Assembly (NCBI RefSeq): GCF_009914755.1
Contig: NC_060932.1
Source: the human T2T-CHM13v2.0 reference genome, Homo sapiens
Length of the DNA stretch: 64,000 nucleotides
Strand: one strand, 5' to 3'
Shown here: positions 10,975-12,676 of the stretch, piece after piece
Position numbering within the stretch: the first letter of the stretch is position 1
Layout of the letters: every line of letters starts with the position of its first letter
The notes under the pieces: generated by a model
Seen by the model: the letters and a program-made list of their open reading frames with translations, nothing else
Told to the model about the DNA's origin: nothing
The model's database searches: none
Made by a program: the position numbers and the translations under genes

Positions 10975-11426
10975 TGTATTTTAAAGGAGTCATTAAAGGA
11001 TTTTAAGCAAGGCCAGATCAACTTTGTGTTTCATAAAAATAACTCTGAAAAAAAAAAACTCTGACTTCCCTGTGGTGAATGAATCACAGGGATATGAACC
11101 TGGAGGGCCACTTACAAGTCAGTTTCCTTTGTGTTTCTTCATGTTGGATAATGAGAATTGGATCAATCTGACATTTTGCTTTATTCATTTTTCATCCCAC
11201 ATATGCTGCTGCAGAGAGTGGCATGAGGGTCTAATGACTCAGGAGATGTTTGAAAGGTAGACGAATCCATCGCTGATGTGTTGCTCTGTTGATAGTCCAG
11301 TTTTCCTTATTACATTCTCTAGGGAGGCCCTCTGACTAATGTAAGCCATCAGCACTATTTCTGGAAGCATGGTAAACATTTTAATCTTTGTGGCCTGATC
11401 TCAATGGAAGACAGATAAACCAAATC
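10975..11426 (+). repeat. Inverted repeat arm 1 (452 bp)
   Basis: Reverse complement of 12226-12676; the only difference seen is A11 vs T10 in a homopolymer; both arms encode the same ORF text (NSDFPVVNESQGYEPGG...QEMFER). Confidence 0.97.
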
Positions 11427-11879
11427 TCCCTTCTGCCTGCAAAATAATCAATAACAAAGAAGAAAATGAAAAACACTTAAGCCAAGCTTCCTGAATGGAT
11501 ACTCCCAAGTAACACAGGAATGATTTTCCCTCAGAAATGTTATCTTGGGGATTCGAATCTTTTATATTGCAATGACAAATGGTTCAGAAGGGGGATTAGA
11601 TGCAGAGTCACTGAGAACGATGGAGACTATAAGGTCACTGCTGAGGTGGACAAAAGTAAAAATGTTTCCTTAGAAAAGGTGAGTTAGTAGAAACACTGCT
11701 ATTTGTGAAGTATCTAGGCTGGTAGGAACGGGAGCAATTCTTCTTGCATCGTGGCTGAGGTGGTCCTTTATTTGATAGTTGGTTTTGAGTGCCAGGCAGT
11801 GCTTCCTCACCTTCTATAAAACAAGGTATTAGCAAGTTTCTGAAATCCCACATAAGATGTTTCATTCATTTCATCGTAA

Positions 11880-12030
11880 CTGTGTGGGAGTCACTGATGA
11901 CCTCCCTGTTGCTTCTCAGACCTCGTCTTAGTTGACCTATCCTTGACACTCCTTCTTTTCAACAGTCTTTTTCCTTGACTTTTCTGACTCCATCCTTTTG
12001 TGGGTTTTTGCACCTCTCTCTAAGTGTCTT
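11880..12030 (+). mobile_element. L2 fragment, inverted continuation of the L2 that ends at 10717
   Basis: Reverse complement reads GAGAGGTG..GGAGTCAGAAAAGTCAAGG..GGTCAACTAAGACGAGG..GGAGGTCATCAGTGAC, the L2 segment expected to follow 10560-10717. Confidence 0.7.
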
Positions 12031-12045
12031 CTCTTTTCTTTTCTA

Positions 12046-12196
12046 TTTTTTTTTTTTTTTTGAGACAGAATCTCACTCTGTCACCCAGGCTGGAGTGCAC
12101 TTGTGTGACCTCAGCTCACTGCAACCTCCATCTCCCAGGTTCAGGTGATTCTCCTGCCTCAGCCTCCTGAGTAGCTGGCATTACAGGCACCCGCCA
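12046..12196 (-). mobile_element. Alu right monomer with poly-A tail (3' half of the split Alu)
   Basis: T-run + GAGACAGAATCTCACTCTG...TTACAGGCACCCGCCA, ending abruptly; the missing first bases of the monomer (TAGCCAGGCGTG) lie on the + strand at 12215-12226. Confidence 0.93.
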
Positions 12197-12225
12197 TAGA
12201 TATATATGTATCTATAGCCAGGCGT

Positions 12226-12676
12226 GATTTGGTTTATCTGTCTTCCATTGAGATCAGGCCACAAAGATTAAAATGTTTACCATGCTTCCAGAAATAGTGC
12301 TGATGGCTTACATTAGTCAGAGGGCCTCCCTAGAGAATGTAATAAGGAAAACTGGACTATCAACAGAGCAACACATCAGCGATGGATTCGTCTACCTTTC
12401 AAACATCTCCTGAGTCATTAGACCCTCATGCCACTCTCTGCAGCAGCATATGTGGGATGAAAAATGAATAAAGCAAAATGTCAGATTGATCCAATTCTCA
12501 TTATCCAACATGAAGAAACACAAAGGAAACTGACTTGTAAGTGGCCCTCCAGGTTCATATCCCTGTGATTCATTCACCACAGGGAAGTCAGAGTTTTTTT
12601 TTTCAGAGTTATTTTTATGAAACACAAAGTTGATCTGGCCTTGCTTAAAATCCTTTAATGACTCCTTTAAAATACA
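12226..12676 (-). repeat. Inverted repeat arm 2 (451 bp)
   Basis: Reverse complement of 10975-11426. Confidence 0.97.

What the first reader, a model, noticed from the sequence alone, without database searches (positions are those of the whole stretch)
10975..12676. Near-perfect 452-bp inverted duplication of unique DNA around an ~800-bp spacer: a potentially flippable cassette
Seen: 10975-11426 and 12226-12676 are reverse complements, differing only by one base in a poly-A run, and are not a recognisable young repeat. Dispersed repeats in this window are visibly diverged, so this identity implies a very recent duplication or ongoing homogenisation. Established: near-identical inverted repeats mediate recurrent inversion by non-allelic homologous recombination. 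Inference: the spacer 11427-12225 may exist in both orientations in the population and would be hard to genotype with short reads.
Basis: partly seen in the sequence, partly recalled or inferred. Interest (0 to 1): 0.85.

Follow-up and report, generated by a model that had tools for sequence, protein, structure and literature searches.

The report
Scar of a small inversion-plus-duplication
A real, nearly perfect 452-base inverted duplication in a gene-poor part of human chromosome 8 is best read as the footprint of one small complex rearrangement, a common and well-described kind of human structural change.

Summary
Arms 10975-11426 and 12226-12676 are reverse complements that differ only by one base in an A-run. 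Extended to 10970/12681 they match at 455 of 457 positions. They flank a 799-nt spacer. The arm occurs only at these two places in the genome and the spacer once. No other repeat pair in 264 kb examined exceeds 96.3% identity.

One old Alu is cut into three pieces around the structure: left monomer (+) at 10722-10841, a 12-nt piece (+) at 12215-12226, and right monomer plus tail (-) at 12196-12035. The pieces tile the Alu exactly. So the 770-nt segment 11427-12196 is already inverted relative to its ancestral orientation. The left arm is the inverted copy that came with it, and a 30-nt piece was relocated. That makes three new junctions with 0-4 nt of microhomology.

This fits the "inverted duplication / duplication-flanked inversion" class, the commonest inversion-type variant in the 1000 Genomes set.

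Recombination between the arms could still flip the spacer. I could not test that here, and published base rates are low. The finding is ordinary in kind and of low interest.

The parts
10722..10841 (+). Segment 'a', part 1: left monomer of an old Alu (positions 18-135 of the reference Alu taken from window 9825-10145), sense orientation.
   Evidence: blastn against the window's own Alu, 80% over 120 nt; MAFFT placement.
10842..10969 (.). Segment 'a', part 2: a (GATA)n array and TA/CA-rich low complexity grown from the Alu's mid-linker. Its right end is junction J1 with the left arm. An 11-mer (ATACCCTGTAT) at 10919-10929 recurs at 10969-10979, across J1.
   Evidence: GATA family D2; exact-match scan.
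10970..11426 (+). Left arm X (core 10975-11426). It is read as the new, inverted copy of the right arm and is continuous with the inverted segment c'.
   Evidence: 455 of 457 identity to the reverse complement of 12226-12681; only two copies in the genome.
11427..12034 (-). Single-copy part of the spacer (part of segment c', 608 nt). It is inverted relative to the ancestral orientation, as inferred from the Alu.
   Evidence: One match in the genome; its orientation follows from the antisense Alu half attached to it.
12035..12196 (-). Right monomer and A-tail of the same Alu (reference positions about 154-311), now antisense. This is the end of the inverted segment c'. Junction J2 lies at 12196|12197.
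   Evidence: blastn 83% over 154 nt on the minus strand; MAFFT; weak Metazoa_SRP match at 12060-12195 (-), below the gathering score.
12197..12226 (+). Segment 'b' (about 30 nt): 18 nt of AT-rich, nearly palindromic low complexity, then the 12-nt Alu piece TAGCCAGGCGTG (reference positions 141-152) in sense orientation. Junction J3 with the right arm lies at 12225/12226|12227, with the base at 12226 shared.
   Evidence: Exact 12 of 12 match to the Alu on the plus strand. In the MAFFT alignment it abuts the start of the antisense right monomer. Near-palindrome seen.
12227..12681 (-). Right arm X' (core 12226-12676). It is read as the original copy, still continuous with the right flank.

Best explanation
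The inverted repeat is the scar of one small complex rearrangement of the 'inversion with flanking inverted duplication' type (INVdup, or 'Inverted Dup').

The ancestral order was a - b - c - X' - d, and it carried one intact Alu. Its left monomer and expanded linker lay in a. Its positions 141-152 ended b. Its right monomer and tail began c.

The present order is a - X - c' - b - X' - d. The 770-nt segment c is inverted. The adjacent 455-nt X' is present twice in opposite orientation. The 30-nt b now lies to the right of c'. This needs three new junctions.

The mechanism I think most likely is replicative (MMBIR/FoSTeS-like). A broken fork end at the c|X' boundary first copied about 30 nt (b). 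It then switched strand and copied c plus X' backwards (1226 nt). It then returned to a and went on processively.

The event happened in intergenic DNA and has no visible function. The identity of the arms mainly reflects youth: at most about 6-10 My if there has been no gene conversion.

Shown: the repeat, its uniqueness, the split Alu and the three novel adjacencies. Inferred: the ancestral order, a single event, the replicative mechanism and the age.

As a by-product the two arms are now a possible substrate for recombination that could re-flip the spacer. Nothing here shows that this happens.
For: (1) The arms are 455 of 457 identical and inverted, 799 nt apart, and occur only twice in the genome. 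The spacer is single-copy.

(2) One Alu lies in three pieces that tile it without overlap. Positions 18-135 are at 10722-10841 (+), 141-152 at 12215-12226 (+), and about 154-311 at 12196-12035 (-). In a MAFFT alignment the 12-nt piece ends where the antisense piece begins (3 of 5 reference Alus are informative, because I entered 2 in the wrong orientation). By my own arithmetic, an exact 12-mer falling within about 60 nt of the break by chance has a probability of roughly 4e-6.

(3) All three novel adjacencies interrupt the Alu: linker to arm, Alu position 154 (-) to low complexity, and Alu position 152 to arm. The X|c' and X'|d adjacencies show no break, as the model expects.

(4) The junctions carry only about 1, about 1 and 4 nt of microhomology. 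At J1 the match is 9 of 10 over a 10-nt stretch. An 11-mer from 50 nt upstream recurs across J1. This is a non-homologous, template-switch type of signature.

(5) Literature, read as passages. [quoted passage not shown] CNV-flanked inversions are 77.2% of complex SVs and are explained by MMBIR/FoSTeS or by multiple breaks (PMC5338099).

(6) The short-then-long-then-processive order of copied tracts matches what is described for break-induced replication (recalled, from no call).
Against: No outgroup or second human haplotype could be examined, so the ancestral order is a reconstruction from one Alu.

The orientation of b rests on 12 nt only. The rest of b is nearly palindromic.

The expected target-site duplication of the Alu, which would tie the left flank to the inverted segment, was not significant: local score 12 against a shuffle mean of 13.3, with 1639 of 2000 shuffles at least as high.

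Microhomology at J2 and J3 is only about 1 nt. That fits end-joining of several breaks as well as it fits template switching. A two-step history gives the same sequence.

The 11-mer repeated across J1 is not fully explained by the simple three-switch path.

Gene conversion could hide a much greater age.
Confidence: 0.7

Rival explanations
1. Active recombination toggle. Whatever made the arms, non-allelic homologous recombination between them now flips the 799-nt spacer recurrently, so both orientations segregate in people.
For: The arms are 452 nt with no substitutions. Validated human IR-mediated inversions have repeats from 140 bp to 134 kb and inverted segments down to 197 bp (PMC13629690 section 4). 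Nearly all of 24 NAHR inversions with repeats of 654 bp to 24.2 kb were recurrent (PMC6748972, passages). The systematic part of the 2026 catalogue used duplications of at least 1 kb, so a 452-nt pair could have been overlooked.
Against: No population data were reachable. Only 6 of 319 (1.9%) inverted duplication pairs without earlier evidence were polymorphic in 54 people. The arms are shorter than any in the 2019 set. No chr8 entry near this place was found in PMC3961182, in the main text of PMC6748972 or in 12 of its 14 supplementary files. No paper text carries coordinates near the locus (those coordinates are my estimates).
Confidence: 0.08
2. Two-step origin. First a fold-back template switch made a near-palindrome with 1226-nt arms (c plus X') around the 30-nt b. 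This unstable structure was then stabilised by an asymmetric 770-nt deletion of c from the right arm, starting at the loop-stem border.
For: It gives exactly the present sequence, with J1 and J2 from step 1 and J3 from step 2. The deletion starts exactly at the b|c border, where a hairpin would be cut. Long palindromes with short spacers are known to be unstable and to be resolved by central or asymmetric deletions (recalled, from no call). Fold-back with short spacers is documented for human inverted duplications (PMC3907307, seen in a search listing and abstract only).
Against: It needs two events where one would do. No intermediate is known. [quoted passage not shown]
Confidence: 0.15
3. 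Breakage and rejoining. Three simultaneous breaks, one of them staggered over 455 nt, with the fragments b and c+X' reordered and joined by non-homologous end joining after fill-in.
For: Microhomology is 0-1 nt at J2 and J3. [quoted passage not shown] Staggered-break duplications flank many Drosophila inversions (recalled, from no call).
Against: A 455-nt stagger is long. The classical staggered model predicts b on the left and an inverted b on the right (a-b-X-c'-b'-X'-d), which is not what is seen. The imperfect 10-nt homology and the repeated 11-mer at J1 look more like priming than blunt joining.
Confidence: 0.12
4. An old duplication kept identical by arm-to-arm gene conversion. The structure may be shared with other apes.
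For: The arms exceed the length usually needed for homologous exchange, and they are close together. Palindrome arms elsewhere are homogenised in this way (PMC8600007, abstract in a search listing).
Against: This is a statement about age, and it is compatible with the proposed origin. The A-run length difference and the outer mismatch persist. The arms are short for efficient conversion.
Confidence: 0.15
5. Mobile element or artefact: a DNA transposon with long terminal inverted repeats, an L1 twin-priming product, an Alu-Alu recombination inversion, or a mis-assembly.
For: Terminal inverted repeats are typical of transposons. About 85% of human inversions under 2 kb are L1 twin-priming (abstract of 10.1101/2021.12.20.472354).
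Against: The arm has only two copies in 3.1 Gb and the spacer one. No direct repeat flanks the arms. The Alu pieces are parts of one element, not two chimeric full Alus. An assembler error would not create a relocated 30-nt piece and three clean junctions, and the 1.7-kb structure is far shorter than the long reads used for this assembly (recalled, from no call).
Confidence: 0.03

Closest known systems
'Inverted Dup' sites of the 1000 Genomes phase 3 SV map (Sudmant et al. 2015, PMC4617611)
   Same: A duplicated stretch under 1 kb (452-457 nt), in inverted orientation, within 5 kb (799 nt) of its source. It is not retrotransposon-derived, and a replication-error origin is proposed.
   Different: Those are variants seen against hg19 in a population. 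Here only one haplotype is seen, so polymorphism is unknown. This case also carries an inverted intervening segment and a relocated 30-nt piece, so it is more complex than a plain inverted insertion. I could not see Supplementary Table 15, which may or may not list this site.
INVdup / dupINV complex SV subclasses (Collins et al. 2017, PMC5338099)
   Same: An inversion with a duplication at one breakpoint, the duplicate inverted. MMBIR/FoSTeS or multiple breaks are proposed.
   Different: That catalogue was built from large-insert libraries and describes large events. This one is 1.7 kb and has a third junction. The letter formula of the subclass (AB to B'A'B) is recalled, not read in a call.
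IR-mediated recurrent inversions (Aguado 2014; Giner-Delgado 2019; Moreira-Pinhal 2026)
   Same: Highly identical inverted repeats flank a short unique segment. The arm length lies within the 140 bp-134 kb range of validated cases.
   Different: Neither two orientations nor recurrence have been shown here. The arms are below the 654-bp minimum of the 2019 set and below the 1-kb cut-off of the systematic 2026 scan. Here the first inversion came from a non-homologous event that created the repeats, rather than from recombination between repeats already present.
Fold-back inverted duplications with short spacers (Hermetz et al. 2014, PMC3907307)
   Same: An inverted duplicate lies close to its source with a short spacer at the turn-round point (30 nt in the inferred intermediate).
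   Different: Those are large terminal duplications with deletions, formed through dicentric chromosomes (abstract only). This one is interstitial, sub-kilobase and balanced apart from the 455-nt gain.

Membership tests
Small local inverted duplication / INVdup complex SV | A duplicated stretch under 1 kb is present in inverted orientation. | tested here: met
   452-457 nt, 455 of 457 identical.
Small local inverted duplication / INVdup complex SV | The copy lies within 5 kb of its source. | tested here: met
   799 nt between the arms.
Small local inverted duplication / INVdup complex SV | It is not derived from retrotransposition or a dispersed repeat. | tested here: met
   The arm has 2 of 2 genome matches at this locus and the spacer 1 of 1. 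Old, highly diverged repeat families would not be seen by that search.
Small local inverted duplication / INVdup complex SV | The segment between the copies is inverted relative to the ancestral or reference allele (this separates INVdup from a plain inverted insertion). | tested here: met
   The Alu right monomer attached to the spacer is antisense to the left monomer and to the 12-nt middle piece of the same Alu. This is an inference from one element; no outgroup was available.
Small local inverted duplication / INVdup complex SV | The junctions are non-homologous, with no or short microhomology. | tested here: inconclusive
   About 1, about 1 and 4 nt (9 of 10 at J1), read. These values depend on the reconstructed ancestral sequence.
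NAHR-mediated recurrent (toggling) inversion | Highly identical inverted repeats lie at both breakpoints. | tested here: met
NAHR-mediated recurrent (toggling) inversion | Both orientations are observed among haplotypes. | not testable with these tools
   Only one haplotype is held. A scan of genome contigs for an arm 30-mer found 0 records.
NAHR-mediated recurrent (toggling) inversion | Independent recurrence on different haplotypes or in other apes. | not testable with these tools
   No ape or population data are reachable.
L1 twin-priming inversion | The inverted and direct parts are both L1 sequence, with a poly-A tail and a target-site duplication. | tested here: not met
   The arms and spacer are single-locus sequence, not L1. 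The only retroelement is an Alu that is split by the event, not created by it.
Terminal-inverted-repeat DNA transposon | A multi-copy family with target-site duplications flanking the repeats. | tested here: not met
   Two arm copies only. No direct repeat at the outer ends.
Alu-Alu recombination-mediated inversion | Two inverted, full-length (chimeric) Alus lie at the breakpoints. | tested here: not met
   The three Alu fragments are non-overlapping parts of one element.

The most novel reading that the evidence does not exclude
The locus is a live, sub-kilobase inversion polymorphism. Either recombination between the two 452-nt arms keeps flipping the 799-nt spacer in the human population, or the pre-rearrangement allele still segregates. 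Either way it would be invisible to short reads and missing from catalogues that start from duplications of at least 1 kb. It would be one of the smallest IR-bounded toggles whose repeats can be shown to have been created by the founding inversion itself.
Probability: 0.12. Interest if true: 0.4.

Novelty: new member of a known kind. Interest (0 to 1): 0.2.

Why it matters
The case is a clean worked example. A single split Alu lets the ancestral order, the three junctions and the likely order of template switches be read from one haplotype, without an outgroup. It shows how a non-homologous event can create the inverted repeats that later recombination could use.

Practically, the spacer's orientation cannot be called from reads shorter than the arms, so the site is worth a look in long-read panels.

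Nothing points to a gene, an RNA or a regulatory element. No gene or functional element is annotated in the window (hub note). No Rfam match falls in the arms or the unique spacer. There are no long open frames. So its biological weight is probably nil.

Tried and rejected
(1) Target-site duplication of the Alu, as independent support for the reconstruction. It was not significant (score 12, with 1639 of 2000 shuffles at least as high). I dropped it as evidence.

(2) A 17-nt resemblance between 10941-10956 and part of b (9-mer, the rest read by eye). This is expected by chance in AT-rich sequence by my own estimate, so I did not use it.

(3) Classical staggered-break inversion, and a single NAHR flip of a plain inverted insertion. 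Both predict b inverted (and, for the first, a second b on the left). The sense orientation of the 12-nt Alu piece contradicts this.

(4) Human or primate contaminant contigs as a second haplotype. There were 0 hits for an arm 30-mer in genome contigs.

(5) Catalogue look-ups. There are no chr8 entries near the site in PMC3961182 (only at 2.1-2.3 Mb), none in the main text of PMC6748972, and none in 12 of its 14 supplementary files (files 13 and 14 were not searched). Six coordinate prefixes found in 0 papers; the hg38 and hg19 prefixes were my own estimates from a recalled NEFM position, so this miss is weak. A search for 'inversion, NEFM, ADAM7, chr8' listed 3 papers, none of whose titles or abstracts concern the locus.

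(6) Supplementary tables of Sudmant 2015 and Moreira-Pinhal 2026 could list the site.

(8) RNA readings. At E<=1 there were 7 Rfam matches, none reaching its gathering score and all inside Alu or low-complexity DNA. If transcribed, the unit would fold into a 455-bp stem (-1074 kcal/mol against -414 to -428 in 5 shuffles), but no transcript is annotated.

(9) Coding potential. There are 11 stop-to-stop frames of at least 50 aa, the longest 189 aa running through the low-complexity tract. I did not pursue them.

(10) A wider base-rate control of 400 kb. Only 200 kb could be fetched.

Full report
**1. The observation**

The window is human (T2T-CHM13 chr8:25,048,001-25,112,000, per the hub note).

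- The repeat finder on 9500-14500 reports two adjoining inverted blocks. One is 11049-11426 / 12226-12603 (378 nt, 100%). The other is 10970-11057 / 12594-12681 (88 nt, 99%). The inner block's arms lie 799 nt apart.
- A gapped blastn joins the blocks into one alignment of 455 identities in 457 columns with one gap. The gap is a length difference in an A-run. The only mismatch is at 10974/12677, five bases from the outer end.

**2. More than chance, and not a dispersed repeat**

- In a self-comparison of the whole window there are 17 inverted pairs of at least 100 nt. This one is at 99.6% and the other 16 are at most 84.6%. The 14 direct pairs are at most 90.7%.
- In a 200-kb control stretch 200-400 kb upstream, 0 of 54 inverted pairs of at least 150 nt reach 98%. 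The best is 96.3%, a 3.1-kb pair 105 kb apart. Also, 0 of 61 direct pairs reach 95%.
- Searched against the whole 3.1-Gb genome, the arm matches only its two copies here (2 of 2 candidates). The unique 608 nt of the spacer match only themselves. That search would miss ancient, strongly diverged repeat families.

**3. Anatomy: one Alu in three pieces**

I used the window's own Alu at 9825-10145 as a ruler. blastn places its positions as follows:

| Alu positions | Window coordinates | Strand | Match |
|---|---|---|---|
| 18-135 | 10722-10841 | + | 80% |
| 141-152 | 12215-12226 | + | 12 of 12 |
| 163-311 | 12187-12035 | - | 83% |

- By eye the minus-strand match continues to about position 154 at 12196.
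- A MAFFT placement of the fragments on full-length Alus from the window shows the 12-nt piece ending exactly where the antisense piece begins. Three of the five references are informative, because I entered two in the wrong orientation.
- Between the left monomer and the left arm lies a (GATA)n array and TA-rich low complexity (10842-969). This is the kind of tract that grows from the A-rich Alu linker.
- Hence the three pieces were once one element.

I name the parts as follows:
- a: up to 10969
- X: 10970-11426
- c': 11427-12196
- b: 12197-12226
- X': 12227-12681
- d: the right flank

The only order that restores the Alu is a-b-c-X'-d. The present order is a-X-c'-b-X'-d. Three adjacencies are new and each interrupts the Alu:
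- J1, linker to X
- J2, Alu position 154 (antisense) to the low complexity of b
- J3, Alu position 152 to X'

The adjacencies X|c' and X'|d show no break. So 770 nt of the 799-nt 'spacer' are already inverted relative to the ancestral state. The left arm is the inverted copy that travelled with them.

**4. Junction details**

- At J1 the last four bases before the mismatch are shared between the end of a and the reverse complement of the X'|d border. Over ten bases the match is 9 of 10.
- An 11-mer (ATACCCTGTAT) at 10919-10929 recurs at 10969-10979, straddling J1. By my own estimate such a repeat within about 80 nt has a chance probability near 4e-4. It therefore bears on how J1 formed, through priming on an imperfect homology or through slippage. 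The simple path does not fully explain it.
- J2 and J3 have about one shared base each.
- One Alu base (position 153) is missing.
- The AT-rich 18-20 nt of b are nearly palindromic, so b's orientation rests on the 12-nt Alu piece alone.
- A test for the Alu's target-site duplication, which would have tied the left flank to the inverted segment, was not significant.

**5. Mechanism**

I considered three paths that give the observed order.

(i) One replicative event. A fork moving leftwards breaks at the c|X' border. The free 3' end primes at the end of b and copies about 30 nt. It switches to the other strand at the b|c border and copies c and X' (1226 nt). It then returns to the end of a and continues. 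Short, then longer, then processive tracts are what is described for break-induced replication with template switching (recalled, from no call). I think this most likely.

(ii) Two steps. A fold-back makes a long near-palindrome around b, and a 770-nt asymmetric deletion from the loop border follows.

(iii) Three breaks, one staggered, rejoined in a new order.

The classical two-break staggered model, and a single recombinational flip of a plain inverted insertion, both predict an inverted b. That is not seen. Sequence from one haplotype cannot separate (i) to (iii).

**6. Age**

The core arm has 452 nt, 38.7% G+C and 2 CpG. I used a recalled rate of 0.5e-9 per site per year, ten-fold higher at CpG.
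- Zero substitutions gives a 95% upper bound of about 6.1 My.
- Counting the outer mismatch as a substitution gives about 9.7 My.
- This holds only without gene conversion, which cannot be excluded.
- The A-run difference may date from the event itself, since break-induced replication is error-prone at homopolymers (recalled), or it may be a later slip.

**7. Comparison with what is known**

- Sudmant et al. (PMC4617611, passages) validated 229 inversion sites. Only 20% were simple. [quoted passage not shown] They judged these more likely to come from replication errors than from recurrent rearrangement.
- Collins et al. (PMC5338099, passages) found CNV-flanked inversions, including the dupINV and INVdup classes, to be 77.2% of complex SVs. 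They name MMBIR/FoSTeS or multiple simultaneous breaks as the cause.
- The present structure meets the size, distance, orientation and non-repeat criteria of this class. The class is common.

**8. Will it flip?**

- The arms are within the range of validated IR-mediated inversions: IRs of 140 bp to 134 kb and inverted segments from 197 bp (PMC13629690 section 4).
- Among 319 inverted duplication pairs chosen only because they exist, 6 (1.9%) were polymorphic in 54 people. That systematic set required at least 1 kb.
- I found no mention of this locus. I could not open the relevant supplementary tables.
- I put recombinational toggling at roughly 8%. I put any kind of segregating orientation or arrangement difference at roughly 12%.

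**9. Other readings checked**

- No Rfam family reaches its threshold. All 7 weak matches lie in Alu or low-complexity DNA.
- If transcribed, the unit would form a 455-bp stem, but no transcript, gene or functional element is annotated in the window (hub note).
- There is no meaningful open frame.
- The copy number, the lack of flanking direct repeats and the one-Alu tiling argue against a transposon, L1 twin-priming and Alu-Alu recombination.
- An assembly artefact is unlikely. The structure is far shorter than the reads behind this assembly (recalled), and it carries three specific junctions.

**10. Verdict**

The structure is a new, neatly resolvable member of a common known class. Interest is low.

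Noticed in passing
window 10837-10888 (and up to 10969): A (GATA)n microsatellite of about 13 units, followed by a TA/CA-rich tract, has grown out of the A-rich middle linker of the Alu at 10722-10841. The low-complexity tract also contains a small hairpin-like motif around 10919-10943.
   Followed up: partly
window 44371-44523: A direct pair at 90.7% with a 46-nt offset, which is a short tandem or minisatellite-like array.
   Followed up: no
window 48521-48878 and 50423-50775: A direct repeat pair of about 355 nt at 86.9%, inside the densely masked block 48574-50781. 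Its nature was not determined.
   Followed up: no
L011:8258-L012:1388 and L022:6153-9286 (G000 C8 about 24,726,258-24,729,388 and 24,834,153-24,837,286): A 3.1-kb inverted pair at 96.3% identity, 105 kb apart, with an adjoining 1.5-kb block at 93.8%. These are probably two fairly young copies of a dispersed element. By size and identity they would be a better classical NAHR-inversion substrate than the finding.
   Followed up: no
window 10032-10091 (-) and 12082-12141 (+): Sub-threshold mir-3135 matches (58.5 and 25.6 bits against a gathering score of 80) fall inside Alu right monomers. This is a reminder that the family model resembles Alu sequence.
   Followed up: no
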